A DNA stretch of 37,892 nucleotides, taken from NCBI GenBank assembly GCA_003990765.1, contig RBNJ01000174.1:1-37892 (forward strand). Reading direction: 5' to 3'. Made by a program: the position numbers and the translations under genes. Under the pieces are notes generated by a model, which saw only the letters and a list, made by a program, of their open reading frames with translations, searched no databases and was not told the origin of the DNA. How positions within the stretch are numbered: position 1 is the stretch's first letter; every line of letters starts with the position of its first letter. Source of the stretch: Jimgerdemannia flammicorona (taxonomy: Eukaryota). Shown here in pieces: positions 1-37,861 of this stretch.

Positions 1-1985
1 TTTTTTTGGCTTTTTCACTTTATATCGGCACTCTCCAAAAGGTGTGGACACGATAGTAAAGTGGCTGGGATAATGGATATCTCAATTTCTGATTAAATGT
101 ATTACTCAGCAACTAGACCACTTTGTGTTCGAACATATTGCGCATCATTGCCTCGCACAAAGTGTCGTCCACTACCGCATTTACACCTCATATAAAAAAT
201 CCCAGACATAAAAAAGCTACCCTGGTGTGGTATACGGTATGCCGCTTGTTGGGGTGGGTAAATAAATAAATAAATCCTCTGATTGAGTAATGCGGCGAAT
301 AGGGTGCGAAAGCGATCCATTCGTTCCAAAAATATATCGATGTTGTAGACGCTCATTATCGTTCCGCGTGTAATTGCCACAACCGTGCAAGGTTTTTGAA
401 TCGTGGTCATCACGATAGTAACCTCCCTTGGGTGGTTGTGTTGAACTTCAAATTGCACATCGGAAACTGAATGCCACAAGCGCTACCACTTTTACGTGAG
501 ATAAATCTATTCGGATCACGTGTCAGCGTTACCAAACGAAAGCAATATATTGCCGCGCACGTTGACCTCTTATCTAGTTTTTTGCTCTTTTTTTGCATTG
601 CCAATTCATAACTTACACATTTTGTTTAAGTTTTTTCCACCATCCCTTACCAACTGCACATTTGATGGGATTGTCTCCGCTTCGAGGATTGACCCTCGTG
701 CTTTCGCAAGTGCAAAATCAACCAATTCACCTGTTATGGAAAAAGTGGAGACATTTTACTTGTGTAGACAAGAAAAGGGGTGTTCAAATATTGAGACCGA
801 AATGGTTAATGTCACACTCAATCTTGGAAAATATTTCTATATTCATTTGACTGACTTGAGAGCAAGTCATCGAAGGTATCAGTTTTACTCAAGAATTTAT
901 TATTTTTTATTTTACCTATAGGTTCAATATGAGAAAATAAAGTAGAAATTATTTGTCAAATATAATAAAGAAAATAGTGTAAAGACCATTTTATTGTAAT
1001 TTATCAATATCTGAGTCAATGATATTCTCTGAGATTGATGAAAATAATAAGAATAAGGATACTAAAGATTAAGATAATAAAAATATCATCAAAGTCAAAC
1101 TAAAGCAGATTTTATATATACTACTATAGCTAAAAGTCAGGTATGAACTAAATCAATTATACAACTTATGTCTATATCTGAGAAAGTATTAAAAAAGAAT
1201 ATTATGAAAAAGAGTTATAAATATAAAAAGATAGATTTGAAAATAAGACTTTATAGAGATAAAAAGATATTGAATTATATAAGAAAGAAATTCAAGTATA
1301 AGAAAAAAAAAATTAATAATATATAAATATTTTAGAATTAGAGGTATAATTTTTTAAATATAATTTATAATATAATAAGAAAAAAATTCTATAAAAAATA
1401 TAGATAAGTTTTTAATATAAAAGTTATATAATTGAAATATATACTCATTTAACTTTTATAAATATATATATAACCTATAGATTAAAGAAATTCTTTTTTT
1501 TTTATTTTTTATAATTTATAAATATGAAATACTAAAGCATTTTATCAAAATTCCACTCAATATATTTATGAACTAAACTTATATATTTGTTAAATTCTAT
1601 TTTTTTAGATGAGATATTTATATATATCTTTATATTGAAAAAGAATAAGCTAAATTACTATGTAAATTTATTAATATATATACTATTAGTGTTATAGTAT
1701 ATAGAATTAATTATTCATGAAATTCACTTATAAAATATATATTTATATATTATACTAATAGATAAAAAATAGATTAGTTAAATATAAAATAATTCTAATA
1801 GATATTGTAATAAACCTATATACTGATAGAATTAATATATTATAGATAATTAATAGTGACTATTGGTCCAAAGTTCTGAGTTTTTAAAGAAGTACTGAGT
1901 TCTAATTATCTATTATAGTAAAGTTTAGATAACACTTTCAGATTCTTATATAGTGTAATGGTGACCTCAGAATGATGACATCAGC

Positions 1986-2996
1986 ATGGAAGACAGCCTT
2001 TTCTTGCAAGCCACTAGATTGGAATACAAGAAGATCATATGGCATATGAGATGAGCAATAATGACCAACTGTGAGTCATTGTGACTACAGTACAAGCATC
2101 CTGAAGAATATAAAAGAAGGATCAAGAAACTGCAGTAGCAGTAACCAACAAGAACCACTAATCCCAAATTAGCTCAAAGACTTACTATAAATGAAATATC
2201 TGTTGTCTGCCAAACCTCAAGGTCAAGGAACTACCAAGGTATCTCAGTTGAAGAAAGGATGTTCCAAGACATCAGAAGAGCTATGAGGACCTGCTCAAGA
2301 AGGACTCCTAGTATCAACCTGGGTATTGCAGACCTCTATCACTTTATTCTCTACCACCATGAAATGGAAACAAGGATCACCATTGCTACTGAATGCCTCC
2401 AAATGTAGCAGGTATATGAAATAGGAAACCTCCTCTGCCAGAAGTTCCCATAGGTCAGCACTCAAGAGCTACAAGATACCACTCCCATGGATATACATGA
2501 AATAAGGACAGCTAAGAAGATCCATCAGATCTTCAGGTATGTACCATGGTTAATCCCCAACTTGGAGTATGTTAGAGTCTCAGATTTCAGAGACCTGTCA
2601 TCCTGCTATATCAATGCACTAGAAGCCAGGGTAGCTACAGAAGCCCAGTCCACTATCACCCTCAATAGTGATGAAGTAGAAGACTTCTGGCACCCTATCC
2701 TCCAGAACAACCCAGACCAATTTCTGCAAGAGTTGATCTCAGTATTCCAAGGCCCAAGCATCCAGGTTAGATCTCCCCAAGACCCCACATTTGTCCCCTA
2801 TTTTGTGGAAGAGAACCTCATAGACTGGAGAGCCCCAGACCTCCTCTCCACCACTGAATGTGATGATGTTATCCCACACAACATCAAAGTATATGAAATG
2901 TATGATCTATATGATGAATTTACAGATCTTATCTCCTTCAGTAATAATGATGATAATAATGATGAAGCCTTCATGGTTCTGAACTTTCTGCTCTAA
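1986..2996 (+). pseudogene. Accessory ORF inside the 5' LTR of element A (266-336 aa, unknown function)
   Basis: One reading frame from ATG 1986 (or 2196, which is ATG in the 3' copy) to TAA 2996. Stops at 2406 and 2451 are TGG and CAG in the other LTR. Confidence 0.8.
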
Positions 2997-3006
2997 GTTC
3001 TTTGTT

Positions 3007-3135
3007 ACACTGGATAATATCAGTACTGGTATTCTCATATAACACTGGATAATACCAGCACTGATATTCTGAGGTAATACGAAATTGTTCCAGTACCAGT
3101 ATTCTGATGTGATACTGAATTATATCAGTATCCTG
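3007..3135 (+). repeat. Degenerate 35-bp tandem array (about 3.7 units) in U3 of element A; also present in the 3' LTR (~10225-10353)
   Basis: Units start at 3007, 3042, 3077 and 3112, e.g. ACACTGGATAATATCAGTACTGGTATTCTCATATA and ACACTGGATAATACCAGCACTGATATTCTGAGGTA. Confidence 0.8.
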
Positions 3136-3235
3136 AACCTGTACAACCATTAGTACTGACCCTGGAACTTAGTAGTTTTAGTTATTAGAATTTATATTTA
3201 GCTTTATATCTTAGTAACTATTGAATTATATTTTG

Positions 3236-3268
3236 TATAAATACCCCTCTTATTTCCTCTGAAATAAA
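3236..3268 (+). promoter_or_regulatory. LTR TATA box (TATAAATA) and polyadenylation signal (AATAAA) of element A
   Basis: TATAAATA at 3236 and AATAAA at 3263; both retained in the 3' LTR. The same arrangement occurs on the minus strand in element B's LTR (10841-10848 and 10783-10788). Confidence 0.65.
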
Positions 3269-3474
3269 GTCAGTTCTGGTTTCACTTACACACAATCTGC
3301 AAGCAATCTAAGAGATAATAAGACAGTTTAAAGATAAGAAGTTTGAGGACTATAAGACCTTGGGAAGGTACTCCAATAAGAACTTGCTTATAACAAACTT
3401 GAGTTAGTCTAAGAGATATACCTTTAAGAGAATCTGGTATATTTGAAGAACTCAGCAACTACTACATGACAACT

Positions 3475-3489
3475 TGGTATCTATTGGCT
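3475..3489 (+). other. Primer binding site of element A (tRNA not assignable)
   Basis: TGG-initiated tract 3 nt after the end of the 5' LTR. Confidence 0.6.
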
Positions 3490-5435
3490 GGTGATTCAAG
3501 ATGAATCCCTCACTCTCAAGCTAAAAAACGAACAACTCCACAATAACTACCCTGACTACAAGAGTTACCCCTGCAAGAATTCAAGATAAGATGGAAATGT
3601 ATCCCCCCACATTCTATAGATATACTACTGAAGAGTCAATCCTGACCTTCATTGAAGACTTTGAACAATTTGCCACCATACAAGTCCTTGGTGTGGATGC
3701 TTAATTGGTCCTTCTACCAGTCAGTCTCAGAGGACCTGCCAGAGACAAGTTCAATGCAGCCACCATTGCTGATGCTAGTGCAGCCAAACTTGCCAACATA
3801 AAGGCCTTCCTCAGAACAACATATTATACCAAAGAGATCAAGCAAGCTCTCAAGGATCAACTCAATACTATCTGCCAGGGACTTAGTGAAAATCCCAACT
3901 CATTCTATACCTGAATCTGTCACCAGATTGTCTTGGCTGGCTATGATGACCACCTCAAGGAACAAATAGTGGATTCAACTTTCCTCAAAGGAGTTCACTC
4001 TGAAATTGCCCTAGCAATCCAGTCTACCCCAGCTGCACTGACCCTTAATCAGAAAGTAGTCTTTGTACAGAGATATTGGACTGCCAGACACCCTGCTGAA
4101 CACTCAATGGGGAAAATAACTGGCATTAAGATGGAGCCATCAAAGCCAACTAGTATCTTACCCACTACAGTTGTAAACAGACAACCAATCCCATCTACCC
4201 CCAAGACAGCCAAAGCTGACCCAGTGGAAGAACTTGCCAAGCAGTTTACTGAGATGACTACACACCTTAGTAATGTTGTTAGAGAAGTCCAAAGTGCCAA
4301 CAGGAGACCAGTGCAGAGATTTGTAGCTACTATAGAAGAATGCAATATTATATACTTCAGATGCAGAGAAGAAGGCCACTATGCAAAGAATTGCATAATC
4401 AAAACAAAATGCAAAGCCCAACCAAGCAATGCTAGCAGAACCAGAGAACAAACCAATGCAGTAGTCATTGAGGAGATTGGTGATACTGATGATGAAGAAT
4501 ACTATGAAGAGCTTGAATTCTACCCTGCTACTGAAGGTACCAGAACCCAGTCCAAGCCCTGTGACAAGAAGAGCAACAGTAAGCCAGTTGGAAGACCAAA
4601 GAAGACCTCAGCTATCACTATTCAAAGTAAGACCCAACCCAAGGAGATTGATCAAGACATAGAATTAGATAAAGCTGCCCACCAAATTATTAAAGGCACT
4701 ACTCTAGTCTCAGGAGAAAGTGAAAGCAAGAAGAAACAGAAGCTGTGCAAGACCAAGATCTATTAGTATTACATCTACAAGGACCTCAAGGAACAGAAGG
4801 TCAATGCTACTTTTGGACAACTATCCAAAGTCCCTGCCTTCAGACAGCAGTTGAGAGTAGGACTTGCAACTACTGCTAAGAATCAAGAGTACAAGATTAT
4901 AGAAGCTCACAATGCACAGAAAGAATCTGAGAACTTAGGTGAAGAATCTGAAGACCAGCACAAGATATCAGCCTATACTCTATATCAGATTGAAGACTAT
5001 ATCTTTGATGCCATCATTGATACCAGTGCTGGAGGATACCTCATGAGCAAGAAGGCAATTGACCACCTAGGCTGGGATATTGAAGAGTCTACCAAGATGG
5101 TCTATGTTATAGCAGATAGTACATAAGCTACCCCCCTTGGCAAAATCTGAGAAGTCTCCATCAAGATAGGAGGAGCTACTATCCCAGTAGACATGATTGT
5201 TACAAGTGCCACCAACTATAACATCCTCATTGGCAACCAATGGCTTCACAAGGCCAAGGCCATCATTGACCTCAATGCCCAGAAGATACAGATCAACTAT
5301 AGAGGAAGAAAGGTACAAGTTTCTATCAATGTCCACAAAGGAGTTCTATCAGATATGGAGGAAGGAGATGAAGAAGACACAGAGGTCTTCATACACTTGA
5401 TGAACAAGAACAAGAATAAGACACCCAAGCTCACA

Positions 5436-5567
5436 GATGAACAGTGGTATAATAAGATCATCAATAGCTATGCCCCTCAAGGAAGATGTCCCCATAGTAC
5501 TAGGATGTACTACTCTGAACACCTGAATGACTGCTGGTCCTGTATCAGTGAAGTCAGGAAAATCTAC
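5436..5567 (+). other. Cys/His module between protease and dUTPase in element A
   Basis: DEQWYNKIINSYAPQGRCPHSTRMYYSEHLNDCWSCISEVRKIY (C-x-H-x8-H-x3-C-x2-C); homolog in element B. Confidence 0.7.
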
Positions 5568-5684
5568 CAACAGAAACACAAGTAAGAAGCTACCAAAGCA
5601 TAAAGGAAAGCCAAAGAAGATGACCAGCCCCCAGAGCTCCAAGCTGACAGTGATGATGAGAAGGAACAAGAATCAGACATCACC

Positions 5685-6093
5685 CTCAAGGTCAAGAAGT
5701 TTCACTCTGAAGCCAAGATCCCAGAATATAAAACTAAAGGAGCCATAGGAATGAACCTTGTCAGCATTCAAGATGCTACCCTCAAACCACAGACTACCAC
5801 CCTACTTAGCACTGGAATCAGAGTCAAGCTGCCAGAGAACTATGCTGGAATTATCAAGACCAGGAGCAGTCTGGCCAAAAGCGAAATCTCAGTTGAAGGA
5901 GGAGTAATTGACCCTGATTACACTGGTGAGATCTTCCTTTATAGTCAGAAATCACAACCACACCACCTCCTTTGAAGTCAAGAAGTATGATAGGATTGGC
6001 CAGATACTGATCTATGAAATCAAGAAGCCCAAGATCATTGAAGCCATTGAACTCATCAAGACCAAGAGAGGAGAACAAGGCTTTAGATCTACT
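5685..6093 (+). pseudogene. Trimeric dUTPase domain within pol of element A
   Basis: Motifs AIGMNL, RSSLA, GVIDPDYTGEI, DRIGQIL and RGEQGFRST; one frameshift near 5935. Confidence 0.95.
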
Positions 6094-9000
6094 AAAAGAG
6101 GAGCCTATACCACTACCAAGATTACTGAACTCAAGCACAAGAGAGACAAGGACCAAAACAAGCACACATATACCATTGGAGAAAACTTTCCCCTGGAGGA
6201 ACAACTTCTCAAGATCCTGTACCAGAATGAAGGAGTACTTGCTACAGACTTTAGGAATATCCATAATCAAGAACCCAAGTACTACCATGAAGTTGACACT
6301 GGCAATACTAAGCCCATCTACTAGAAAGCCAGACCCATACCACCTACCTACAGAGAGTGGCTGCAAGCAGAACTCAAGGAAATGGAAGAAGCCAGAATTA
6401 TCAAGCAAGCTATCAGCCCCTGGGTTTCATCCATTGTCCTTGTCCTGAAGAAAGGAAGCAAGCCTAGAGAGTTTGCACCAAGACTCTGCATTGACTACAG
6501 AAAGCTCAATACCATCACCAAGAAGGATAGACAGCCCTTGCCAAATATTCAAGAAATCCTTACCACCCTTGGAAGTGAAGCCAAATACTACACCACCTTA
6601 GATCTGTTCTCAGGCTTCTATCAGATTGGTCTCACTCAAGATGCCAGTGAGAAATCAGCCTTCATCACACCTGACACCACCTATATCTATCTGCAAATAC
6701 CATTTGGAATATACAATGCCCCAGTAAGTTTTCAGTGAATGATGAACAGAGTCTTCAGCAATGAGATTGGAAAATGGCTCTTTGTCTATGTTGATGATAT
6801 GATCATCTTCAGCAATACTGCACAGGAACATATCAATTACATACAGCTAGTCCTCAAGAAGCTCAAGGGGTATGGCCTCTACATCAAGCCCAAAAAATGC
6901 AAGTTTGCAGCTCAAGAAATTGCCTACCTAGGACACCTCATCAACCAGACTGGGATCCACACAGACCTCATAAAGATCGAGGCTGTAGCAGCCTACCCAA
7001 GACCCAGAACAACTACAGAAGTCCATGCCTTCCTTGGACTGGCCAGCTACTACTGAAGATTCATCAAAGGATACTCCAATATTGCAGCACCTATCTATGA
7101 GCTACTGAAGAAAGAGACCAAATTTGAATAGACCAAAAAGTGCCAAGAAACCTTCAATGAACTTAAGACCAGATTGACCCAAGCACCTATCCTCAGAAGA
7201 CCAGACTGGAACCTAGAATTCATCCTGCAGACAGACATGAGTGCTATAGGACTTGGAGCAGTCCTAGCTCAGAAGAAAGATGGATATGAATATGCTATCT
7301 TCTATGCAAGCTGAGGTACCTACAGAGCAGAACAAAACTAAGAGTCATGCAAGCTCAAATACTTAGCAGTAGTTTGGGTAGTAGACAAGTTCCACTACTA
7401 CCTAGCCAAGAAACACTTCACTATTCAAACAGACCACTCTGCTCTCACCTGGCTATTCCACACTCTGAACCCCAAAGGAATATATGCCAGATGGATCTAC
7501 AGGCTGTAAGAGTATGACTGTACTGTCAAGCACTGCTCAGAAAAGACCAAAACCAATACTGATGCACTCTCAAGGATACCTCGAAACACCCCCATCAAGA
7601 CTATTCAACATAAATAAGAAGCTATACTATGGATTAATCAACTATCTTGGATAGTGGAAGATGTCCAACCATCTTAAACCTTAGATAATCAATATTATCA
7701 ACTAGACTTGGAAATAGTTTGAACTAGACAACACTATACTCAGAAAAGGAGAAAAGCTAGTAATACCCAAATATAAGAAGTATCAAGTAATGAAGGAAGT
7801 ACATGAGCAAGGATACTTAGGAGGAACCAACACATACAATAAGGCATGAAGAACCATGTGGTGGCCTAAGATAGAAGAAGACCTGTGCCAATTTGTCAAA
7901 GGGTATAACAAGTGCCAAAAACAGAAACAAGATCAGCAAGACCAGGTACCCGGGTCATCAAGAATTGAGCCTATCCCATTCCACTACATTGCAATAGATA
8001 TCATTGGACCACTACCAGTAATACTATCAGGAAACTGCTATATTATAGTTATTGTAGACCTCTTCACCAAATGGATAGAGGCAGGAGCATTATAAGAAGC
8101 CAATGCCCTCTCTATAGCTAACTTCCTACACCAAGAAATCATCTGCCACTACAAGACACCAAAGCAAATCACAACAGACCACAGAACAGAATTTGTCAAT
8201 GGATTCCATGAGATAATGTATCAGAAATACAAGATCCAGCACATCAAAACCACTGTGTACCACTCTCAAGGAAATGAGAACTAACAAGATCCTCAAGAAC
8301 ATCCTAGCAAAGATCTCAGAGACATATGAGAATTGGGATAACTATCTCCCAACTGCCCTCTCTGTTCTATGAGACATATGGTCACAGAACACATACTTTA
8401 CCCCAAGAGAGCTGCTCTTTGGAGAAGAAGATTCTGATGGAACCTCAGCTATGAATCTAGACCTAACTTAGAGACAGATTGATGCAGAAATCTGGAGACT
8501 ACACCAAATCAAGAAGAAGGCTGAAGATTATATCACCAAGTCACAAGCACTGACAAGGAAGAATGTAGAAAAGAATAATAAGGCCCTAGAACTCATCTGA
8601 ACTAGAGAAAAAGTTCTACTGTATTGAAATATGGTAGAAGCCTCATGGTTATGAAAACTGGAGCCCAAATGGAAAGGACCCTTCTATGTACAAGATATCA
8701 AGGGAACCACCTTCTGGCTTAGAAAAATCTCAGAGACCATACTGCCTACTATAGTACATAGGAACAGACTCAAGAAGTACTACAAACCTATACAAGAGAA
8801 GAAAAATGTGATGACTGCCTGTGAGGTTCTAGTCCGTGAATCATAACAGCATGTCCTGTGACCAGCAGGCTATCTGTCTGGACCATTCTCTAAGGAATAT
8901 GGCACTGGTAACTACTCATCCATGAGACTTTCAAAGTCAGAGAAGATCAAACCATCAACTGATTGGTCAAGATCAGAATCAGGCCCTTGCTCTATATGAA

Positions 9001-9159
9001 GGGAGCAACCCTTCACCATTATACCAAAATACAAAGGGAAGACACCAGCCCATAAATATCACTTTTCAACCCCTTGTCAGAGGTTATGGGATCAACAAAT
9101 TTTTCAGAACTGGACCAATGAATAAGGATATTCGAGAAGATCCTTATTCAGGAGAAAGA

Positions 9160-10691
9160 TGTAACAGTGACTTCAGAATGATAATATCAGCATGGAAGAC
9201 AGCCTTTCCTTGCAAGCCACCAGATTGGAATACAAGAAGATCATATGGCATACGAGATGAGCAATGATGACCAACTGTGAGTCATTGTAACTATAGTATA
9301 AGCATCCTGAAGAATATAAAAGAAGGATCAAGGAACTGCAGTAGCAGCAACCAACAAGAACCACCAATCCCAAATTAGCTCAAAGACTTACCATAAATGA
9401 AATGCCTGCTGCCTGCCAAACCTCAAGGTCAAGGAATCACCAAGGTATCTCAGTCAAAGAAAGAATATTCCAAGACATCAGAAGAGCCATGAGAATCTGC
9501 TCAAGAAGGACTCCTAGTGTCAACCTGGGTACTGCAGACCTTTATCACTTTATCCTCTACTGCTATGAAATAGAAACAAGGATCATCATTGCTACCAAAT
9601 GCCTCCAAATGTGGTAGGAGTACAAAATAGGAAATCTCCTCGGCCAGAAGTTCCCACAGACCAGCACTCAAGAGCTACAAGATACCATTCTCATGGATAT
9701 ATATAAAACAAGGACAGCTAAGAAGATCCATCAGATCTTCAGGCATATACCATGGTTGATCTCCAACTTAGAGTATGTTAGAGTCTCAGATTTCAGAGAT
9801 CTGTTATCCCACTATATCAATGCACTAGAAGTCAGGGTGGCTACAGAAGCCCAGTCCACTATCACCCTCAATAGTGATGAAGTAGAAGACTTCTGATACC
9901 CTATCCTCCAGGACAACCCAGACCAATTCCTGCAAGAGTTGATCTCAGTATTCTAAGGCCCAAGTATCTGGGTTAGATCTCCCCAAGACCTCACATTTGT
10001 CCCCTATTTTGTAGAAGAGAATCTTATAGACTGGAGAGCCCCAGACCTCCTCCCTGCTGCTGAACGTAATGATGTCATCAGTGGTGACGTCATCCCACAT
10101 GACATCAAAGTATGCAAAATGTGTGACCTATATGATGAATTCATGGATCTCATCTCTTTCAGTAATAATGATGATGATGATGAAGCCCCTATGGTCCTGA
10201 ACTTTCTGCTCTAAGTTCTTTGTTACACTGGATAATGCCAGCATCAGTATTCTCATGTAATACTGGATAATGCCAGTATCAGTATTCTGAGGTGATACAA
10301 AATTGTTCCAGCACCAGTATTCTGATGTGATACTGAATTATATCAGCATCCTGAACCTGTACAACCATCAGTGCTGACCCTGAAACTTAGTAGTTTTAGT
10401 TATTGGAATTTATATTTAGCTTTATATCTTAGCAACTATTGAATTATATTTTGTATAAATATTCCTCTTATTTTCTCTGAAATAAAGTCAGTTCTGGTTT
10501 TCTTATACATAATCTCTTGCAAGCAATCTAAGAGATAACAAGACAGTTTAAAGATAAGAAGTTTGAGGACTATAAGACCTTGGGAAGGCACTCCAATAAG
10601 GACTTGCTTATAACAAACTTGAGTTAGTCTAAGAGATATATCTTGAAGAGAATCTGGCATATTTGAAGAACTTAGCGACCACTACATAACA
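9160..10691 (+). repeat. 3' LTR of element A (1532 bp)
   Basis: TGTAACAGTGAC...CTACATAACA; preceded by the PPT and followed by the TSD ATAG. Confidence 0.96.
9192..10214 (+). pseudogene. Accessory ORF inside the 3' LTR of element A (second copy)
   Basis: Same frame as the 5' copy. Stops at 9615, 9894 and 9954 are sense codons in the 5' LTR. Indels between copies within the ORF are +15 and -3 nt. Confidence 0.8.
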
Positions 10692-10975
10692 ATAGATAGA
10701 AATGAGCATACTTATATTCTAAGTTAATCAGACTCAGAATCATTAATAAGTTAGATCTGAGAGTTTATGATAAGAATACTACTTTATTCTTATATATGGA
10801 AAAAGTAGAGCTGATATTATAATATACTTAGTATAGAGAGTATTTATATTTTCAAAGGCTATAACTAAATATGGTATACTGAATACATATATTTATATAT
10901 AGTTATACTACTTTAGATAACTATAACTGCTAGTTAGAAATTATATAGAAATTTTAATAGGAATTTTTATCAGAA

Positions 10976-11420
10976 ATTCCAGAGCCTTGTAATGATTTAT
11001 TATATCTTTTATTTCTTTACTTAAGCCTACTCATTAGACTCAGTACTAAACTCTAGATATTTATCAAACTGGAGAGCAGTATACTAGACTACTTGAAAAA
11101 TAATTTTTCTTCATTATTCATTACTCAAATTGATAATATTCTCAAAGGATACTCTATAGAGATAGTTAAGAACTTATAGTCAGGTGCAGAAAAGAACATA
11201 GAGTCTCTTGACAACTATATAGGTATAGTTGTCAATGAAAAGACAGACTTATTGTTTGGTAGTACTAAGGGTAGCTTATTGATAGATGAGATATCCTATC
11301 TTATACTCCTTAAGTTCTTATTAGTAGCAAAAAGCTTAGAAATATTATATTCTTCCAAGATATTATTAAGCTTTATTTGAATTAGGGTCTTCAGAGATTT
11401 GAATGTTAACAGCTAGTGAG
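10976..11420 (-). pseudogene. Accessory ORF remnant 3' of pol in element B, homologous to the LTR ORF of element A
   Basis: ELKEYKIGYLIYQ*...IVVKRLYVLFCT*L*VLNYLYRVSFENIINLS aligns with EYEIGNLLCQK...TAKKIHQIFRHVPWLIPNLEYVRVSDFRDLS. The start is not resolved. Confidence 0.65.
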
Positions 11421-11669
11421 TCTATAGAATTTCATTGGTGTTTGATTGCTCTTAGAATGGTAGTAGTAATTTTGTTCTTGACTAGTTCTCAGTATCATTA
11501 TTAGATACTTATGTTGGGAAGATAGATGGTCTATACAGAATTGTTCAGAATATTTGTACTTCTCTTTATAGGGTTATTTAGAAATATGACTATCTTTTAG
11601 AAATTTTATCAGAATTTCTATTATATTAGATTTCTATATTAAGTTACTACTTCTTCTATATTGGACAAA

Positions 11670-14493
11670 AGATTATCTTCTTTTTTTCAGTTAATATTAT
11701 ATTCAGAGTATTCTTTCTATTTCACAAGGTAGTATTAAGTAGGCTTGATAGCTTATCCAAAATGGTAATCCTTATAATTCAGAATATAGTCAACTTTATA
11801 TTTTAGTTTCTAATTAATAATTATTTGATCTAAAGATAGAATAGTTCTTTTTTTAAAGATGTTTGGAGTATATAGCTAAAGTTAGAATATGTGAAACATT
11901 GGATGGATTTTCCCTAGTATTGCCAGAAGGTCCAACTTATATGCAACAGGTCTGTATTTTTCAAAGATCTCAAAAGTCTAATATAGCAGAGTCTAAGCTC
12001 CTTTTTAAAGTCTATATTACTCAGAGTCAGTCACTGAGTATTGAGTAATACTTGTTCTCCTATTTTGTAGATAACTTCTCTTCTATTTTTATCAATATAT
12101 ATCATTTATATTCTTTGTACTTCTATGAGAATATCTTGTACTTGCTAGATATTATCTTGTATAGTATTGATAATTTCTTGTGTTATAGGTACTATAGTTT
12201 GAGTTGATATTATAGAAGTTTATAGATATTTTCTATAATTCAAGTAAAATAGTATCATCTTAGTACTTATACTTGGGCTATTATTGTATGTAAATTTGAT
12301 TAGAGTTAGTTTTTTATCTTAATTATTTTGCTTAGATACTAAGTATCTGCTTCAGGATTTCATTTATTCTTTCTATCTAACCATTTGTTTATAAATGGTA
12401 TATTGTAGATATTTTCAATTACACTCCTAAGCTCTTGAAGAGTGTTTGTCAAAAATTACTTATAAACTTTATATTTTAGTCTGAGATAATTGCTGAGAGT
12501 AGTCTATAAAGACAGAACACATTATCAATAAATAGTTATACTTTTTTTGATACTATTGCAATAGTGGTTATTTATAATAAAGTAAGTCTGTTTGCTGAGA
12601 TGATTGATGAAAATGACAATCACATTCTTTCTCTTTTTAGTTTTTGGTAACTAGACAATAAAGTATATTCTGATGTAGTCTCAATTCTAGATAGAGATTG
12701 GTAGTAGTTATAAAGTACTAGCTAGTATCTGGTTGCTAGACTTATATCTTTAGCAAACATTACAAGATGCAATAGAGTTCTTGATATCAGATATCATTTT
12801 GGACTAGTAGAAGTCTCAAGCAAAATGTTAATATACATATCTTTCCAAAACTCATATATCTGACTATAGATATATCATATAGTTCTTATAGAATTTATAA
12901 ATGAATAGAGATATCTGAGACCCAGATTCTTATATTATCAAGATATATATATATATATTCATTTTGGACAAATATATTCTTATAGACCTTTTTCATAATA
13001 TTGCTACTTTCTTCAAGGATTTATCTGGTGATTTTTTTATACATTGGTGTCTTTGGTGTACTCTTTCTTAATTTCTTCAAATAGGCTAGTGATAATATTA
13101 CTAATTACAGTAAGGTCATCTTTCTGAGCACTTCAGGAGAGTATATCAGCTACTTTATTCTGAGTTTTAGCAATGTACTTTATTTCAATATTAAATGATA
13201 TAAGAATCTGAATCTATTGGATCTGTCTTTTTGTAAGGATTGACTATGTCTAAATATATTAGCAAGTTTGATAGTCAGTCTATAAGGTGAATATTTTATA
13301 AAGAAGAAAATTTCTCTATAGCTATAGAGATCAGATGACTGCAAAGAGTTCTTTGTCTTATATAGTATAGTTTCTTTTATATTTATTGAGTTTCTGAGAT
13401 AGATAGGCAACAGAGTGTTTATATTGAGTCAGAATAGCTTCAATCACAATTTTTGAGGTATTGATAGTAACTACAAAAGGTCCTGTTAAGTTAGGACTGA
13501 TCAAGATTAGTATACATATCAGTCAGAATTCTTTTAAGGGTATTTAATACTATAGTGTATTTTTCTGTCTATTCTTTTTCAATATTAGTATCTTTTTTGA
13601 TAAGACTTATGAGTGGAGCTGTAATTGCAGAGAATTCTTAAATAAATCTCCTATAATATTCTACTAGTCTATTGAATTTTTATAGAGACTTAAGGTTCTT
13701 TGGAATAGGTCAATTGCAGATTACTTGGGTCTTAGGATTAATGACAATACCATTTTCAGAAATAATATAGCTTAGATATTTAATTTCCTTCTTAAAGAAA
13801 TAGTATTTCTTTCTTTTTTCTAAGAGCTTATATTTACTGAGTATATCAAAGACCATTTATAGATATTGTTGATAAATGATATTACTTGTACTATATATTA
13901 GGATATTATCTAAGTAGACTAGAATAAATACTCTAAGATATTTTTGGAAGATATCATTTATTAATATTTAGAAGATTACTAGTGTATTAGTGAGACTGAA
14001 GAGTATTATGTAGAATTCATAATATCCAAATCTTGTTTGAAAAACTATCTTGGAGATATCTTCTTCTTTGATACAAATTTAGTAATATCCAGATATGAGA
14101 TCAATGAGTAAAAAGGTCTTGGCCTTATATACTTAGTTAAGTAGTTTATCAATTTTTAAGAATATATATTAGTTCTTAATTGAAATCTTATTGAGTGCTC
14201 AATAATCAATATATATATAGAGGCTTCCATCCTTCTTATAGATAAAGAGAATTATTGTATCATATAGTGATTTTAATAGATAGATGAGATCTTTACTTAT
14301 CAATTCTGTTAGTTATTCCTTGAGGGTTTCTAGCTCAGATTGGGCTAATTAATAGATTCTGCAATAGAGTAGATTTGAACTGAAAATATCTTCAATATAA
14401 TGTTTTACTGCTTGAACTAATGGTAGTTTTTGAGGTTCTTTAAAAACATCTTCATATTTCTTAAGAAGTTCTCAGAGATTATCTTTCTCATCA

Positions 14494-14578: not shown

Positions 14579-17500
14579 TTTACAGTTTACCCTCACACTA
14601 CTCAATCCCCATAGGAGTACCACTCCTCCGACTTACATAGACAAAGACCATCTTTGCACCCACCACCCCAACCCTCCCCCCACTCTGTCTACAGATTTGT
14701 TCTACCAAATGATGCCTTCAACCCCCCTTCAACCTTCAACCCAGCCACCAGCCCATCAAGGTGTCTTCCATAAGGCTATGTCACCTCATCAGCCTGACCT
14801 CAGAGCCAAGTTTTCTCCTATTCTCAAAAACAAATAGCCAGTGACTGGCCAGCCCTACCCAAATGGCCAAAGCCCACCCTAATATCAGCCATTCTTTCCC
14901 CACCCCCCCCTCCAGTCTATCCCTTAAATCCTCCCAATACTCCCACCCATTAACTCTCCTACACACTACTCTCAGATGATCTCCAATATTCTGCCAAAAG
15001 GTACTAAGTACCTCACACTCTCCTAGCCAATGTTCAGGCATCTGTACATATCCTCCTTCCTGCCCTACATTATAACACTCTTCACAGTCAAAACAGCCTC
15101 CCTTGATAAGGTAACTAGAGCGGAAGTTGAGCATGACATTTCACCTCAGTATACACCACCAGATCACCCAGTACTTTGGTGGCAGCCACCTCCTCACCTT
15201 GGCACTCCAGGCCCATATACTATACCAGTCCCACTCCTCGCCAATTCCTACACCCTGCCAACTGCTAGACCACAGATCCTGGCCTGGTCCCCATTGGCAT
15301 TTGATCCCATCACCAATGTCAAACTCAAGTAAGGGAATGCCACCTAGTAACACTCGATCCCATTGTCACATTGCTGGGTCCCAAGCCTCCTCCCCTTCAT
15401 TTCCCTGTCACCTAATCTCAATGCAGCATGCCTCTTCTACCACTCCCCACCAGAAGCCTTTATACCATAATTGTCCAGAGTTCTGAAGGCCCATAAGCGC
15501 TAGGAGGTCACTCATCGAACCTCTTGGAGAGGACCTCATCTCCCAGACTTTCTGCAGTAGGGGAACCCAACCACCCCCTCTCAACTCCACTGCTCTCTTC
15601 AGCCACCAAGCTCTCAAGCAGTATAGTCTCTTAGGAAAGTCGACCAGCCCAAGTCCCCAACTTGCCACTAGTAAGGACAAGACCTCTCAGTTGATCTGAC
15701 TCCACCTTCTAGCCAATCTATCCCTTGGCCAGCTTCATCAATCACTTCACCACCCAAGCCAGGAAGTCTAGATAATAAGATACTATATCTTTGGCAGCCA
15801 ATAGATATTCAGAATTAAAATGCATCCTGCCAGAGACAATTGATGGCCCCCCCAGCTCCACAGGGCCTCCTCCCAAATGCCAACCCACTGCTCCCACCAA
15901 AGTCTGGGCAGAACCAACCCATATACTGACAGATAGATATCCAAGTACTATACTGCCTCACCAGCAGAGACAATAGTACCAATAATCTCCCCACCCACTA
16001 GACCATTGCCTAACACCATTGTTTTGCACTTATGCTAATTAAGCCTAGCCCCAGAGTTTGCCTCATACCACTCCACTGTCTCCTTGAGCTCCTCAACATC
16101 CGCAACTGATCCCCAACTGACCACTATGTCATCTGCAAATGCCCCTACTTTTCACCTGATGCCAAAGATAGAGAGCCCCACTATCTTCCACCTGATTCTG
16201 TCCATGAAGGGCTCCAGAGACAAAGCATACAAAATGGGGGACAGTGGGTTCTCCTGGAGCACCCCCCTACCCAGGGGAAATACTACCCCTCTATGTTCAT
16301 TACACATGAGTGCCACCCTACTCCCTTCCAGTAGGCTGACCATAGTAGTCCTGAACTGTTGTGGGACCCTGATCCTATCCAAAACTTTTGCCAACCAAAC
16401 CCATTGTACTCGGTCATAGGCCTTCTCTTGGTCCAAAAAGACCAGATACCCATCCAGTCCACTGGCTCGTGCCCCTTCAATAATGCCATGTACCCATGCT
16501 ATACCATCTCTTATGAGCCAGTCTCTAATGAAGCCCCACTGCTCCTCACCCAAGACTTGCTGGACCACCTTTTGCAACCTTACGACTACCACTTTGGTAA
16601 CCAACTTTCTGTCCATATCCAGTAGCATAATCGGCCTCCAGTTCTTCTAGTCCTCTCGGCTTCCTTTGTTCTTATAAAGCAATATCACTAACCCTAGGTC
16701 CTGTTCTTCCACCCATCTCCCTATCTGTAGAATCCAATCACACAGTGCCATCATCTCTCCCACTATTCCAGGAACTCCCACCATCCTTTTCCAGAAGTCC
16801 CAGGGCAGACCATCCTCTCTAGGTGCTGTACCCAAGGTTGTCGCAGCAAGAATCTGGTGGATCTCCTCCTCTAGCACTAGCAGTACTAAGTCATCCAACC
16901 CAGCTGCTCAGGTAGGGTACCAATCCTCCAAAGCTCGATCAATGTCCTCAGCACCTGCCCCACCCTCCTCCTTACTCCACAATCCACTCCAATGCTCCTT
17001 TAATGATCCAAGAATATCTTGTACCCCATGCACCAATGAACCATCAGCATTAAGCACCCCTTCCTACCTTTGCTACACTCTTCTCGCCTAAAGGGCCCTT
17101 GTAAGAAACTTCAAGGGCTGCTCTCCTTCCTCCAGCCCCTGCCAATGAAGCCATGCTGCCAGACCCTGGACTCTTGCCTCTTCCTCATTCTGCAGCACCT
17201 GTTGTAGTTCAGCTACCTCCATTTGTAACCTTATTGATTGCCAGTCCTCCTCTCCCTCCAATATCACCAGTCTTGCCTAGTTCTCCAAGAGTCTAGATAA
17301 TCTACATAATGCCCACTATACCCACCACCTCCTCTGCCTCCCTGCCTCCATACCAGCCTCACTCCAGAAGGCCCTGGCCATCTCCTTCATCCTCATCCAC
17401 TGAATATCAACTGCGACCCCTCCCTGCCTCCAATACTCCACCTGTATTTGAATGACTTTGGCCTATTTACCCCACTGGATCTTATCTTCTAGTAGGGAGG

Positions 17501-18248
17501 AATTGAGATGCCAATGTCCAGGCCCATCCCCACTCCCCCCAAAATGTCTCTGCCCCAAAAGCCCCCAATAATCTGACCAAGGACACCATTCTACCTCCAG
17601 CGACTTCCAAACATCCAGGCCCCAGCAGCTAGCTGTCAGAATCCAATCAATCCTTATCCCCAGGCCCCCAGCCCAGTGTGTGTACACCCTCCTATTCCCC
17701 CAACATTCTCTACCCACATCTACCAGAGCACTAAGTCTTTCCACTTCCTCCCATGCTGCCAGTCCTCTACTCCACTCCACAGCACCTCGTCCCCCATCAG
17801 TTCTATCCCTCAATATATCTCAGACCATATTGAAGTCCCCACTGAGTACATCTACTCCAGCCTCTACAAAAATCCCACTCTCCTGTAGGCCTGTCACCCA
17901 ATTCACCTGCTCGCCCCATACTGCAGGGCAGTAACAGGAGTCCACCATGACAGGCTCTCAACCTGCATATAACCACTCTCTCCAGAACAATCTATTTCCT
18001 CAGCTCTGCATATCCCGTATCTCTCCTCTGCCCTTCCACACCAGAATTCCAACCTTGCCCTTCCAAACTGCCTCACCTCTCCACTCCTTCATCCATTCCA
18101 GTCTATCCAAGTCATCCTTACACCTGACATCCTGCAAGAGAAAGAGATCAGCCTCCAATCCCTTCAGCTAAGTAAAAATGTTCTTACATTGATAAGCACC
18201 CCATAACCCATTCACATTCAAAGAAAAAATGTTGGTTGTACTATTCAT
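14579..18248 (-). pseudogene. LINE-a ORF2: APE endonuclease, reverse transcriptase, C-terminal Cys/His knuckle
   Basis: MNSTTNIFSLNVNGL, LFLLQDV, RIDWIL, WSDY, LDQEKAYDRV, GVLQENPLSP, AFADD, CEEC...EHWLGEC. The 3' end is approximate. Confidence 0.93.
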
Positions 18249-18259
18249 GAGAGAAATTA

Positions 18260-20225
18260 TATAGTTTCAGATGCGTCCTCTACTGCTCCATGTCCACTTT
18301 CTCCTGTGCCCTATCCAGGTTGCACTCAGCAATAGCTTCTGCTTCCTTGGTCCTCTTAGCCTCCAATTTAGTCAGGATTTCCACCATCTCCCCATCCTCC
18401 TTTTCCTCAAACTCCTCATGGTACTCCAAACAAGCCTCCTGTCAGAGCTACAGTCCATGCCTCTTAGTCTAATAGTGGACAGCCTGCTCACCCACCACAA
18501 CCACCAGAGCAGCTTCCCTCTCCTTATCTACCTCATACCCCTCCTCTTCCAAGTATATCACCAGAATTTCTGCCTTCAATGCTACCACCACTCTATCTCC
18601 TTGCAGGATCCTTGCCCAATGCTCATTGCTCATCACTTGGAGGTTGACTTCCCCCAGCTCTTCTGCTGCTAAGTTGTTCATTATTTGGCATACCCAGAGT
18701 AAGTTTCCTACCTCCTTCCCTCCTGGGGTCACTGGCCTCCCTCCATCCAACATCATAGTATCAGCCCCTATACTCACTGACTCATTCCATCCCTCCTCCA
18801 GGACATCCACCAATTCTCCTTTCCCAGTCGCCTTTACCAATTCTCCCTTCTCTACATTTGGGACTCCAAAGCACACCTGCTGAGTACCACACATCAGTAC
18901 ATCCTCCATCACTCTACCTTTCGCCACTGGACCCCTTCTGATAAGGGGAGAGGGTGAAGGTGAATCCTCCCAGGTTTCCTCCCAAACCTCCAGTGTGCCA
19001 TCTTCATATGGATTCTTGCTTGGCACCTTCATGGCCTCTACCTGCCCCCCCTCCTCGTTCCACTCACTACTAGCAGCCCAGACACTCACCTCAGCACCTC
19101 CAGCAGTTGCACTATCACTTGCCTTCCTTGTCACCTCTACCCCCATTTTCACCAACAATTCCCTCTGTCTTCTGCACTCTTGGGACCTCTCCCACACCTC
19201 CTTGTTGATGCAGACTCACTTTCCTCCAACCACCTCAAGATGCATTGCTGCCTCGAATGCCTTCCATACTTTTGCCCTCCTCTAACTGCCCCACTCAACT
19301 CCTCTAGCACTTCCAGCAAATCCTTCTCCTCCTCCTCACTCCCCTTTACTCTTGTCACCTTATACAAGATAGCCCTCCACACCATCACTGAGGGCCAGTT
19401 CTGAGCCTTCCCAGTAGCCTCCTGCCCAGCCAGCTGAATCCTGATGTCAACATCCCCTGTCTAGAGAGAGATTCCCTCCCACACTCTGAACCCAATATTG
19501 ACCACCTCTCCATACTCCACTATAATCTCCTCAACTCTCTTCCTTGTTGCTATAGCAGTAACAGTGGGAACTCCTTTCACCAGAAGCTACACTACTCTCA
19601 GGTCCCACTGCAGGCATCTCACCATCAGTATGCACACCTTGCCCACTTTCATCCCAGCCTTCAAAGCCTCCTCCAGTGGCCCAGCCTCCTCTAATCTCAC
19701 CTCCACCCCTTTGAGGCCCTTCAGGAACTTAACAGATGCTGCCTCACTCATTTGCTTCACAATCAGCCCCAGAACCATTTTTGCCATCACCGCTAAGCCC
19801 CGGAAACACATTGTGATTGCAAATTCCAAGATTGACTTCTTGAGTAATGGAGCTACTGCCAGTTCTGTTATACCATCCGCTAGGTCCCCGGGCCTCATAC
19901 CCTTCCCACTGCTCGGCTCACCATCAGCAGTCCCATCTAGATTTTTTTCCAGATCACCCATCACACCCCTATCAGCAGTCCCTGCCTCAGCCACTACCCC
20001 CCCAGCTCCACCCCTATGGCCCTCCAGAGGGGTACCCCTATGAGGTTGCTGCCTGGTAGTCCTTACTGGCACCTTCTCCCCCCTCAGCCAGCTCTCCAGT
20101 CCAGCTCCCTGTTGACCCCCCTTCACCTTCTCCACAAAGCTCACTCTGCCAGACCCTTGACCTCCAGCTCTGCCCCCTCCTCCACCACATCCTCCCACCA
20201 GCAGGTCCCTCATACTACCCCCCAA
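18260..20225 (-). pseudogene. LINE-a ORF1
   Basis: Long minus-strand frames (19587-20225 and 18469-19197) whose sequence recurs in LINE-b and LINE-c (SFxxKVK, DLAD...LLKKS). Confidence 0.8.
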
Positions 20226-20396
20226 GCCAGGGCCTCTCCCTATTTACTGCCATTCAAATGCTCCAGGGCCACTCTGCCCAGTATGCACCCCAGGATACTC
20301 ATTGGTTGCCATGATACTAGTAGCTTGTCTCCAGAAACTATATCGAAAGTATTGCCAAAAGATTGTGTAACCTGAATGTTACCAGAGAAAGATGCA

Positions 20397-25300: not shown

Positions 25301-26866
25301 CAACTGCCACCACCTGACTCCCTTTCACTATATCCAGAACTCCAAAATGAATATATTGGGTACCATACATCAGCACATTCTCTGCTGCTCAGCTCTTCTG
25401 AGCAGGACCTTGCCTGATAAGAGAGGGAGTATCATCCAAGTCCTGTTCCCAGACTTTGAATGTACCATCTATATATAGGTCAGTGTGCAGTAGCTTCCTG
25501 GCCCCATCTCAACCCTTCTTGACATCCTCTCCCTCCTTACTGGCTCAGATACTTGCCTCAGCACCCCCAGACTCCTCAATACTACCTGCATTCTTCTTTG
25601 TCCTACCCTCCAGGCTTATCAACAACTCTCACTGTCTCTTGCACCTCTGAGCCATCTCTTATAGCTTCTTGTCAGTGCAGAAACATTTCTCATCTACAAT
25701 CTCCAAATGTGTCATCTCCTCATACATCTTTCATGTCTTTGTCCTCTGCTCAACTATATCACTCATCTCTTTCAAAGCCTCCAACAGATCCTCCTCCTCC
25801 TTCTCACTTCCCTTCACCCTTAATATCTTACAGATGAAGGCCTCCCATATTAGTACCAAAGGCCAGTCACTCAGCTTTCCAGTAGCCTCTCTCTCAACCA
25901 GTCTAATCCTGATATAAATATCCTCTATCCTGAAGATAGTCCCCTCCTACATCTGGAATCTGATATCCACCACATTGCCATACTCTGCCATCACCTCCTC
26001 AATCTTCCTCCTAGTCTCACCTTCATCACAGTAGGTACCCCCTTGACCAGTAGCTGAACCACTCTGGGGTCTCACTTCAGACAGCATACTATAGGGACCA
26101 CCACTTCCCCAACAACTACACCAACCTTCAATACTTTCTCCAGTGGATCTGCCTCCTCAAAACCCACCTCAACCTCCTCCAGATCCTTCAGGAACTTTAC
26201 CAAGGCAGTCTCAGCCATTTGCTATGAGATAAGCCTCAGAACTATTCTCATCATTACAGCTAAGCCTCAGAAATATAAGATTACAGCAAACTCTGAGATT
26301 GACTTCTTGAGCAATAGTACCACTGTCAGCCCTATCATACCATCAACCAGATCTCCCTTCCTCTTTAGTCTCTATAGATCAGCCCCACCATCAGCAGTCA
26401 CATCTGGATTTTTTTTCAGATTCTCAGTTATGCTATCATCAGCAATCTCCCCCCTACTTCCAGTATTTACTCCACCAGCCCTTCCCCCCACTAGCTGAGA
26501 AGCTGTACCCCCTGCTTCCCCTTCCCTCTGCTTTTTCTTCCCCTCTGCCTATCTACTATAAGCTCCAACAGGCCATCCTTTAGCCTTCAGTATATCTGTA
26601 AAACTCCTCTCTCTCTACCCTTCTGCCCCTTCTCTAGTGCCACTACTACTATCTAAGCTGTCCTGTCCACTCAGACCACCAAAAAACTCCATCTCTAGTC
26701 CATACTCTCACCTGATATATTGTCAGTCAAAGGCTCCAGATCTATCTGATCTAGTATGTATATTGGCTTGCTTATTTAATACTATAATCTTAGTACCTTT
26801 TTCCAATAAAAGCTTTGAAAGTATGTTATAAAAGTATATATAACATAAATGGTATCTGAGAAAGAG
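22391..26866 (-). mobile_element. LINE-b: related L1/Tx1-type element, 5' end intact, 3' part lost after the RT core
   Basis: NWRPIMLLDIDRKI, LDQEKTYD, VPQGDPLSP, TFVDD, VRYLSI; EN starts near 24723; shares the 5' terminus ...GAGAAAGA (+ strand) with the other LINEs; no tail or TSD. Confidence 0.92.
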
Positions 26867-30643: not shown

Positions 30644-31795
30644 ACCACCAGAGTCGAAGTCCTAATTGAGCTTGATGGACAGACCTAAACTTCAGTTTCG
30701 ACGAAGTACATAATAATCTTTATAATGTTTATTTAATTCCAAACAGTAGAGTATTTCTCTAACCATTAGTTCTTTCTGAAATGTTTTTTTTTTTTTTTTT
30801 TTTTTTTTTGTAAATAAACTACAAATGATATATATTTCAATTAAAAAATAAAAGATAATACAACAAAATAAAAACTGTTATTTTATACTCAATTGTTCTA
30901 ACTGTGTATTTATATTAACTATAAGTAATTCTGAATATATCTCAAACTATATATATTAATTACTTCTTACAATCTTATATCTGATATTTTTAAAATTAGA
31001 AATTAGAGATATTGTAATAAAACTATATATTGATAGAATTAATATATTGTAGATAATTTATCATAGACAATTGGTTCTAAGTTTCAAGTTTGATGAGAAA
31101 TTATTGAGTTTAATTAACTAAATCTATGCTGAGGTTTGCCAAGTTCTAGTTGTCTAATACTGAGATTAAGTCCAAATATTACTTTCAGAATCTTATTACC
31201 AGGTAGAGATTCTGTATCTGTATTCTAAGTTAATTAGATCTGAAATTATAAACAAGTCAGATCTGTGAGTTTTTGATAAGATTTTTTTTTATTCTTTAAG
31301 GAAAAATAGAGCTGAGATTTGATATACTTAGTATAGAGAGTATTTATACAGATTGAATAACTATAGCTAAATATAGTATACTAAATATATCTATATACTA
31401 TTATACTATATAAGATATATAACTACTAAGTTGAAATTTTTATTAAAAATTTCATTTTAAATTCTATTAGTAATTCTAATAAAAATTTTATTAGAACTTC
31501 TAGTAACTTATTGCTATATATATAATAAATTGTTATATCTTTTTGTTTTTTAATCAAATCTACTTATTTGAATCTATACTAAACTCCAGATATATACTTA
31601 TTGAATAAAGTATAGTATATTGAATAATTTAAAAGATAATATCACTTTAATATTTATCTGTTAAGTTGATAATATTCTTAAAAGATATTTTTTAAAAATA
31701 ATCAAGAACTTATAATTGTATAAAAATAAATATATATTCTTTTTACAATAATATAGATATAATTATTAATAAAAAGATATAGTAGTTATTTAGTC

Positions 31796-36332: not shown

Positions 36333-36373
<41 letters not shown>

Positions 36374-37620: not shown

Positions 37621-37861
37621 TAGTTATTTGGTCTTACTAAGAGTTACTTATTGATAGATAATTTATTTTATCTTATAGTATTCTTTTAACTCTTACTAAT
37701 AGTTGAAGACTTGAAAGTATAGACTTTATTGAGATCTAGATTGTTAGATATTTATATGTTAATATATAGTAATTTAATAGAGATTAATTAACATTTAATA
37801 GCTATAAGAATAACTGTCAAAATCTTAATCTTGATTTGTTCTTGATATTATTATGTATTAG

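What the first reader, a model, noticed from the sequence alone, without database searches (positions are those of the whole stretch)
10976..11420. Hidden homolog of the LTR protein in chromovirus element B
Missed by the ORF track. Seen: EYKIGYLIYQ...VKRLYVLFCT*L*VLNYLYRVSFENIINLS versus A's EYEIGNLLCQ...AKKIHQIFRHVPWLIPNLEYVRVSDFRDLS, with one gap over ~63 residues and a matching hydrophobic pattern. Back-mutation restores R, P and D identities. It lies between the chromodomain and the LTR TATA box (10841-10848), the same relative position as in A. I could not locate B's PPT, so whether it is inside the LTR is open.
Basis: partly seen in the sequence, partly recalled or inferred. Interest (0 to 1): 0.8.

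Follow-up and report, generated by a model that had tools for sequence, protein, structure and literature searches.

The report
Dead accessory gene in a chromovirus
A mutation-riddled jumping gene carries, just before its terminal repeat, a dead and shortened relative of an unnamed extra gene that another jumping gene, inserted into it, carries inside its terminal repeats, so one accessory gene sits on either side of the repeat boundary in two distant lineages.

Summary
The hidden gene is real, and its kinship with A's LTR gene is likely. B is a decayed chromovirus; A, a dUTPase-type Ty3/gypsy element, is inserted into B's 3' LTR. B's frame runs 11512-11111 (minus strand, about 134 codons, 16 internal stops here) behind its own TATA box, and shows third-position bias in shared changes.

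A versus B alone is not significant (E 0.099). A profile of three other families (A, C, D) aligns over 128 columns (E 0.0024; 0 of 178 shuffles). It scores 31 of 40 single B copies at P<0.01, against 5 of 530 control frames.

Chromoviruses B and D keep the gene before the PPT; dUTPase elements A and C keep it in U3. B lacks the acidic tail.

No Pfam, PDB or fold match was found, so function is inferred: most likely a separately transcribed regulator of the element. The scan found this family and arrangement before on other DNA of this genome.

The parts
11111..11512 (-). Accessory gene of element B, about 134 codons, dead in this copy (start codon decayed, 16 internal stops)
   Evidence: ATG column at 11512 in 13 of 36 copies; stop at 11113 in 42 of 43 copies; third-position bias 5/2/14; profile match
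11123..11308 (-).
11000..11110 (-). In-frame remainder after the family-wide stop; runs through the PPT to a stop overlapping the LTR start; possibly a former C-terminal part
   Evidence: second near-fixed stop at 11029 (42 of 43), stop at 11002 (40 of 43); the joint alignment runs 9 residues past 11113
11551..11559 (-). TATA-like box in the spacer between pol and the gene (this copy differs at one letter)
   Evidence: GTATAAATA in 27 of 34 copies, 35-57 nt before the start; its letters do not vary like decay sites
11621..11623 (-). pol stop codon of B
   Evidence: TAA in 35 of 35 copies
11645..11800 (-). Chromodomain at the end of B's integrase
   Evidence: Pfam Chromo 30.7 bits, above the 25.1 cut-off, on copy L060; SH3_Tf2-1 E 0.0014 but no Chromo hit on the window copy itself
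11624..14450 (-). Decayed pol of B (RT to chromodomain), cut off on its 5' side near 14450
   Evidence: RVT_1 47.7 bits on 13578-14450; translations
11005..11018 (-). Polypurine tract of B
   Evidence: AAAGAAATAAAAGA directly before the point where 5'-LTR copies stop matching (sequence)
10692..11004 (-). B 3' LTR, first part (U3 with TATA box at 10849-10842, AATAAA at 10788)
1806..1953 (-). B 3' LTR, last part, cut off by the insertion of A; ends TTATTACA
   Evidence: 39 of 48 B loci continue directly into this stretch
1954..10691 (+). Element A: dUTPase-bearing Ty3/gypsy, LTRs 1954-3471 and 9160-10691, nested in B's LTR with ATAG duplicated at 1950-1953 and 10692-10695
   Evidence: LTRs 89% identical; Pfam zf-CCHC, RVP_2, dUTPase, RVT_1, rve; ends
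2196..2996 (+). A's accessory gene in the 5' LTR (broken copy)
9402..10214 (+). A's accessory gene in the 3' LTR (broken copy), TATAAA at 9315
31007..31777 (-). Second, older B-type 3' end in the window (whole LTR without the A insertion, and the 3' part of the gene)
   Evidence: 31007-31120 matches 1800-1912; 31221-31777 matches 10715-11243

Best explanation
B's stretch is a dead copy of a once-selected accessory gene: a shortened member of an unnamed family carried by at least four Ty3/gypsy families of this genome. The gene is a small cassette (TATA box plus ORF) at the 3' end of the element's RNA. It is probably transcribed on its own and ended by the LTR poly(A) signal, so it works on either side of the PPT: before it in chromoviruses B and D (one copy per element), after it in dUTPase elements A and C (in U3, two copies). 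Shown: the frame, its limits, the LTR boundary, the kinship by profile, the conserved TATA boxes. Inferred: separate transcription and function. Most likely function: a soluble helical protein acting in trans on the element's own transcription. In A, C and D an acidic tail could serve as activation region; B kept only the N-terminal helical domain. Confidence is about 0.85 for a real, homologous, internal gene, and about 0.35 for transcription regulator.
For: Coding past: 2 of 25 stop-rich columns are near-fixed in this frame, against 6 of 9 and 11 of 26 in the other sense frames. Shared transversions by codon position are 5/2/14 (p 0.0018), private ones 29/22/25, integrase control 0/1/6; the only shared indel is 3 nt. 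Kinship: joint A/C/D profile vs B gives E 0.0024, score 28.9, 128 colinear columns; 0 of 88 column shuffles and 0 of 90 block shuffles reach it, best 23.3; 23 of 23 other equally decayed B frames have E 0.09 or worse. An HMM built without B scores the ORF frame of 31 of 40 copies at P<0.01 (best 2e-8, window 2.5e-5), against 3 of 218 other frames and 2 of 312 pol frames. Layout: family D has chromodomain, gene, stop, PPT, LTR in that order and shares B's primer-site type; metagenome locus L206 has its stop directly before a purine tract and an LTR-like start. TATA-like boxes lie at a fixed distance in 28 of 28 A, 22 of 23 C, 27 of 27 D copies and 27 of 34 B copies. Last 80 residues of A, C, D hold 18-24 acidic against 3-4 basic residues; no membrane segment.
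Against: A vs B alone E 0.099 and C vs B E 0.17; the HH probability of the joint match is only 12%. A best score of 20 bits would not be significant at database scale, and B copies share one ancestor, so they are not independent tests. The ORF frame was picked by a motif from the region being tested. The LTR control also shows third-position excess (0/4/7, p 0.039). One antisense frame is also poor in fixed stops (3). TATAAA is common in this A+T-rich DNA (2 of 43 to 24 of 34 copies in control stretches). No open B-type relative was found. Nothing here tests function: Pfam, PDB and fold searches are blank, and the models are poor (pLDDT 37 and 42).
Confidence: 0.6

Rival explanations
1. The gene is real and homologous, but the protein counters host silencing (DNA methylation or a RIP-like process) instead of activating transcription directly.
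For: The genome decays these elements by C-to-T and G-to-A change: 140 of 143 differences between A's LTRs are transitions; B copies hold 0-1 CpG per 510 nt. Families with the gene are very abundant: 6009, 4647, 6095 and 1033 first-look candidates (overlapping and not copy numbers).
Against: No sequence or fold link to any known anti-silencing protein. B decayed completely despite carrying the gene.
Confidence: 0.2
2. The protein acts on the element's RNA (export, packaging or translation), as CERV of Cer1 does.
For: Small helical protein with a basic N-terminus. CERV is a precedent in an LTR retrotransposon (PMC10309623, abstract).
Against: No similarity found. CERV comes from a spliced message; this gene has its own TATA-like box.
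Confidence: 0.15
3. B's ORF is a real but unrelated helical accessory gene, and the resemblance to A comes from amphipathic helices and shared C-to-T decay.
For: Identity only 16-23%; pairwise result depends on which A LTR is used; HH probability 12%; B is joined by a branch of 2.4 changes per site.
Against: Colinear match from near the start codon over 128 columns; the score rises as unrelated-to-B families are added; equally decayed controls fail; same place, same 9-letter TATA context and same primer-site type as chromovirus D.
Confidence: 0.12
4. The stretch is an env-like gene, or a C-terminal extension of integrase.
For: Sense position between pol and the 3' LTR is where env-like genes lie (PMC7264820). 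In this window copy the frame is continuous with the chromodomain frame.
Against: Highest 19-residue hydropathy is 0.65-1.06 in open A, C, D proteins (0.84-1.63 in decayed B copies). pol ends at a TAA in 35 of 35 copies, and the window's frame continuity comes from two single-base losses not shared by 29-32 other copies.
Confidence: 0.03

Closest known systems
Sense additional ORFs between pol and the 3' LTR (aORF-3S) of LTR retrotransposons (review PMC7264820; parts 1 and 2 of 3 read)
   Same: Same strand as gag-pol, between pol and the PPT, kept in all copies of a family, function unknown.
   Different: The reviewed sense cases are env-like with membrane segments; this family has none. The reviewed case with its own promoter (Grande gene23) is antisense. 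Relatives lying wholly inside U3 are not described in the parts read.
'add. ORF' of unknown function and dUTPase-bearing elements among fungal Ty3/gypsy (PMC2864245; 12 passages read, figure and supplements not seen)
   Same: Fungal Gypsy elements, including chromodomain-bearing ones, drawn with an extra ORF; dUTPase between protease and RT as in A and C.
   Different: No sequence family, LTR location or kinship across lineages is given in the passages read; whether that ORF is related was not tested.
ORF3 types shared by diverse retroelements of bdelloid rotifers (PMC5408684; abstract only)
   Same: One accessory ORF type in unrelated LTR lineages, some with dUTPase; read as gene sharing.
   Different: Those ORF3s are known enzymes or envelope proteins; this one has no named domain and straddles the LTR boundary.
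MMTV sag, foamy virus Tas/Bel1, HIV nef (recalled, no call)
   Same: Accessory genes in or next to U3; Tas is driven by an internal promoter and has an acidic activation region.
   Different: Vertebrate retroviruses; no sequence similarity was found; analogy only.

Membership tests
Chromovirus (chromodomain-bearing Ty3/gypsy), element B | Chromodomain at the C-terminus of integrase | tested here: met
   Pfam Chromo 30.7 bits (cut-off 25.1) and SH3_Tf2-1 70.7 bits on family copy L060; the window copy itself gives only SH3_Tf2-1 at E 0.0014
Chromovirus, element B | Ty3/gypsy order RT-RNase H-integrase, with LTRs, PBS and PPT | tested here: met
Chromovirus, element B | RT groups with named chromovirus clades (Tcn1, Maggy and others) | not tested
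   No named reference RTs were fetched; in a 5-row tree B groups with chromodomain-bearing D, 100/100
Accessory family of A/C/D (unnamed) | N-terminal helical domain of about 150 residues | tested here: met
   weak in absolute terms (E 0.0024, probability 12%)
Accessory family of A/C/D (unnamed) | C-terminal region with acidic tail | tested here: not met
   B's frame stops at 11113 in 42 of 43 copies; even to 11000 it would be 170 codons
Accessory family of A/C/D (unnamed) | TATA-like box 45-85 nt before the start | tested here: met
LTR-encoded (U3) ORF, as in A and C | ORF downstream of the PPT and present in 5' LTRs | tested here: not met
   0 of 17 B 5'-LTR copies extend beyond 11007
aORF-3S (PMC7264820) | Sense ORF between pol and the 3' LTR in most copies of a family | tested here: met
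env-like ORF | Membrane-spanning segment | tested here: not met
   on open A, C, D proteins; B copies are too decayed to judge alone
Trans-acting transcription regulator (Tas-like) | Nuclear protein that binds and activates the LTR | not testable with these tools
   fold searches inconclusive on a model of pLDDT 42

The most novel reading that the evidence does not exclude
A lineage-restricted promoter-plus-gene cassette has passed between chromoviruses and dUTPase-type gypsy elements by recombination of their 3' ends, and crossed the PPT boundary as it did so. It encodes a new class of trans-acting regulator or silencing antagonist that helped these elements fill the genome. B's tail-less form would be a binding-only variant, possibly a competitor.
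Probability: 0.25. Interest if true: 0.7.

Novelty: new variant of a known kind. Interest (0 to 1): 0.36.

Why it matters
Accessory genes of fungal LTR retrotransposons are barely described, and none of the family libraries searched names this one. B shows that the gene is shared by two old Ty3/gypsy lineages, that its position relative to the PPT follows the lineage (before it in two chromoviruses, inside U3 in two dUTPase elements), and that the N-terminal helical domain alone was once under selection. That marks out the domain to express and solve. The copy itself is dead, the kinship is distant, the function is untested, and the scan has already noted this family and arrangement many times in this genome, which limits the interest.

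Tried and rejected
Searches that found nothing useful: B protein (one copy, X at stops) against 5.8 billion proteins, 0 of 22 candidates; against metagenome contigs, 0 of 232 pattern matches confirmed. A-family searches gave 4 close proteins and 5 representatives among 1.84 billion; the search for shorter forms gave 1 fragment. Pfam gave no family above cut-off for any family member. PDB sequence searches gave 0. ESM Atlas gave unnamed clusters at 0.88-0.93 with low shared counts, leads only. AlphaFold models reached pLDDT 37 and 42; fold searches had no E<=0.001 and best Z 5.1 on one long helix, so they say nothing about the fold. No RNA holder was listed.

Rejected: gene inside B's LTR; fusion to integrase; env-like role. 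An early reading that B's LTR began near 11500 or 11684 was dropped: those breakpoints have unrelated flanks, and the 5'-LTR copies place the start at 11004.

Exchange of the gene between A and D, suggested by raw identities (ORF 40%, RT 41%), was not shown. The best ORF tree has A+C against B+D like the RT tree, with weak support (52/86), and A+D is not rejected either (p-AU 0.48).

Literature: searches found no description of this family; two searches returned 0 papers. Most subscription journals and Repbase are not covered, and the supplements of PMC2864245 were not read. One search timed out without output.

Full report
ANATOMY. Element A spans 1954-10691 on the plus strand. Its LTRs (1954-3471, 9160-10691) are 89% identical, and it encodes gag, protease, dUTPase, RT and integrase, with no chromodomain hit on the integrase tail. 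Each LTR holds a gene of about 270 codons from its Met. Many genome copies have stop-free stretches of 280-305 residues. Element B lies on the minus strand from about 14450 to 10692 and continues at 1953-1806: 39 of 48 B loci run straight from one part into the other, and ATAG is duplicated around A. A is therefore nested in B's 3' LTR. B is a chromovirus: family copy L060 gives Chromo 30.7 bits (cut-off 25.1) and SH3_Tf2-1 70.7 bits, and the window gives RVT_1 47.7 bits.

THE OBSERVATION. The quoted B text is at 11308-11123. It aligns to A with one gap over 63 columns and 14-15 identities. Alone this is fragile: 0 of 2000 shuffles reach the score against A's 3' LTR copy, but 899 of 2000 reach it against the 5' copy. 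A profile of 16 A rows against 28 B rows gave E 0.099. The B rows were the window plus 27 of 44 loci with an unshifted match of at least 140 residues and 58% identity.

WAS IT A GENE? In a DNA alignment of 43 copies (42 of 43 loci plus the window, after 5 duplicate loci were dropped), this frame has 25 stop-rich columns, of which 2 are near-fixed. The other sense frames have 6 of 9 and 11 of 26, the antisense frames 3 of 5, 10 of 31 and 6 of 24. Transversions shared by 4 or more copies fall 5/2/14 on codon positions 1/2/3 (p 0.0018), while private ones fall 29/22/25. The integrase control gives 0/1/6. The LTR control gives 0/4/7 (p 0.039), which weakens the test somewhat. The only shared indel in the ORF is 3 nt; the LTR has many frame-breaking ones. 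pol ends at TAA 11623 in 35 of 35 copies, and an ATG column stands at 11512 (13 of 36). Stops at 11113 and 11029 are present in 42 of 43 copies, against 57-65% at TAG-type columns in pol. The family gene was therefore about 134 codons. The joint alignment runs 9 residues past 11113, so a longer earlier form is possible. All 150 listed matches in the genome contain stops.

IS IT HOMOLOGOUS? A profile search of 1.84 billion representatives with the A family gave 5 proteins. Two of them led to further families in this genome: C (open stretches of 306-375 residues in 13 of 30 loci) and D (284-310 residues in 11 of 30 loci). A, C and D are clearly related (A-D E 8e-49, C-D 3e-25, A-C 2e-18). Against B: A 0.099, C 0.17, D 0.0046. 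A joint profile of 30 rows gave E 0.0024, probability 12%, and 128 colinear columns from near the start codon to the end of the helical domain. None of 88 column shuffles and none of 90 block shuffles reached the score of 28.9 (best 23.3). All 23 other equally decayed B frames scored E 0.09 or worse. An HMM of the A/C/D N-terminal domain, built without B, scored the ORF frame of 31 of 40 copies at P<0.01 and 21 at P<0.001 (best 2e-8, window copy 2.5e-5), against 3 of 218 other frames and 2 of 312 pol frames. Limits: the copies are not independent, the frame was picked by a motif, and 20 bits would not stand out in a database-wide search. I put kinship at about 0.85.

INSIDE OR OUTSIDE THE LTR? 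Of 29 loci picked by B's LTR end alone, 17 share the downstream sequence, mostly beginning with a primer-site-like TGGTAGCAG in decayed form, and so are 5' LTRs. None matches B beyond 11007. A purine run at 11018-11005 precedes a decayed TG start at 11004. The LTR is about 457 bp and the gene lies outside it. Family D is also a chromovirus. Its stop codon directly precedes the PPT, its LTR is 813 bp, and the 5 of its 8 5'-LTR copies that have room upstream start at or after that boundary. Metagenome locus L206 shows the same end. Families A and C both carry dUTPase and hold the gene 220-240 nt inside the LTR start. RT identities are B-D 50%, A-C 43-44%, A-B 31%, and the RT tree splits B+D from A+C at 100/100 (L205 left out). 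Position thus follows lineage in these four families.

HOW IT LIKELY WORKS. A TATA-like box sits at a fixed distance before the start in 28 of 28 A, 22 of 23 C and 27 of 27 D copies. In B the 9-mer GTATAAATA, also seen in D, occurs in 27 of 34 copies with letters that do not vary as decay sites do. I infer a self-contained cassette, transcribed from that box and ended at the LTR poly(A) signal. The PPT sets the left edge of the LTR during reverse transcription (established knowledge), so a PPT upstream of the cassette puts it in U3 and duplicates it, and a PPT downstream leaves it single. The proteins are soluble, predicted helical (core pLDDT 58-67 only), and in A, C and D end in an acidic tail that B lacks. 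A trans-acting regulator of the element's transcription is my best guess (0.35; wording also in e1-7508684), ahead of silencing antagonist (0.2) and RNA-handling factor (0.15). None of this is tested.

ORIGIN. Raw identities hint at exchange between A and D, but the ORF tree is unresolved and compatible with the RT tree. Indirect support for exchange is the narrow range of the family and a 255-nt stretch about 80% identical between C and D just after pol.

COMPARISON AND NOVELTY. By position B's gene is a sense additional ORF between pol and the 3' LTR (PMC7264820, parts 1-2 of 3 read), but it is not env-like. Extra ORFs of unknown function are drawn in fungal elements (PMC2864245, passages), and accessory ORFs shared across lineages are known from rotifers (PMC5408684, abstract). 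Plant additional ORFs mostly lack known domains (PMC9289625, passages). Six searches found no account of this family. Within this scan the family and the two-sided arrangement were noted many times before; one note (e1-7552601) disputes a single family across five lineages, which my four-family result neither needs nor fully tests. What this window adds is the nesting of A in B, exact B boundaries, controlled kinship tests, and the lineage pattern. Verdict: real, a new variant of a known kind, interest 0.36.

Noticed in passing
L173 (oriented 3534-3787) against L118, L126, L128, L133, L134, L138: Chromovirus D and dUTPase element C share about 255 nt at 79-82% identity just after pol, although their RTs are only 42% identical. 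This points to recent 3'-end recombination between the two lineages.
   Followed up: partly
window 1950-1953 and 10692-10695: A is inserted into B's 3' LTR with a 4-base target duplication, so the two carriers of the gene family are nested.
   Followed up: yes
window about 15000-20400, 22400-26500, 32500-37600, minus strand: Three decayed repeats about 66% identical to each other, with RT-like text typical of non-LTR retrotransposons (recalled, not scanned) and neighbouring poly(T) runs at about 14500 and 30780.
   Followed up: no
window 28740-30643, plus strand: Intron-containing cytochrome P450 gene; Pfam p450 E 5.5e-30 on one exon.
   Followed up: no
window 31007-31777 and 37624-37677, minus strand: Second B-type 3' end; a short piece of the gene region recurs at 37.6 kb, on the far side of the third large repeat.
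   Followed up: partly
window 5604-5975: dUTPase between protease and RT in A; also in family C.
   Followed up: yes
L060:928-1307: An unusually little-decayed integrase end of the B family joined directly to unrelated, G+C-richer DNA with open stretches.
   Followed up: no
L006, L007, L018, L088: Tandem partial duplications of the B 3' region.
   Followed up: no
B family, window columns 11113 and 11029: Two stops present in 42 of 43 copies, against 57-65% at comparable pol columns. Either the family amplified after its gene was shortened, or the short form was the working one.
   Followed up: partly
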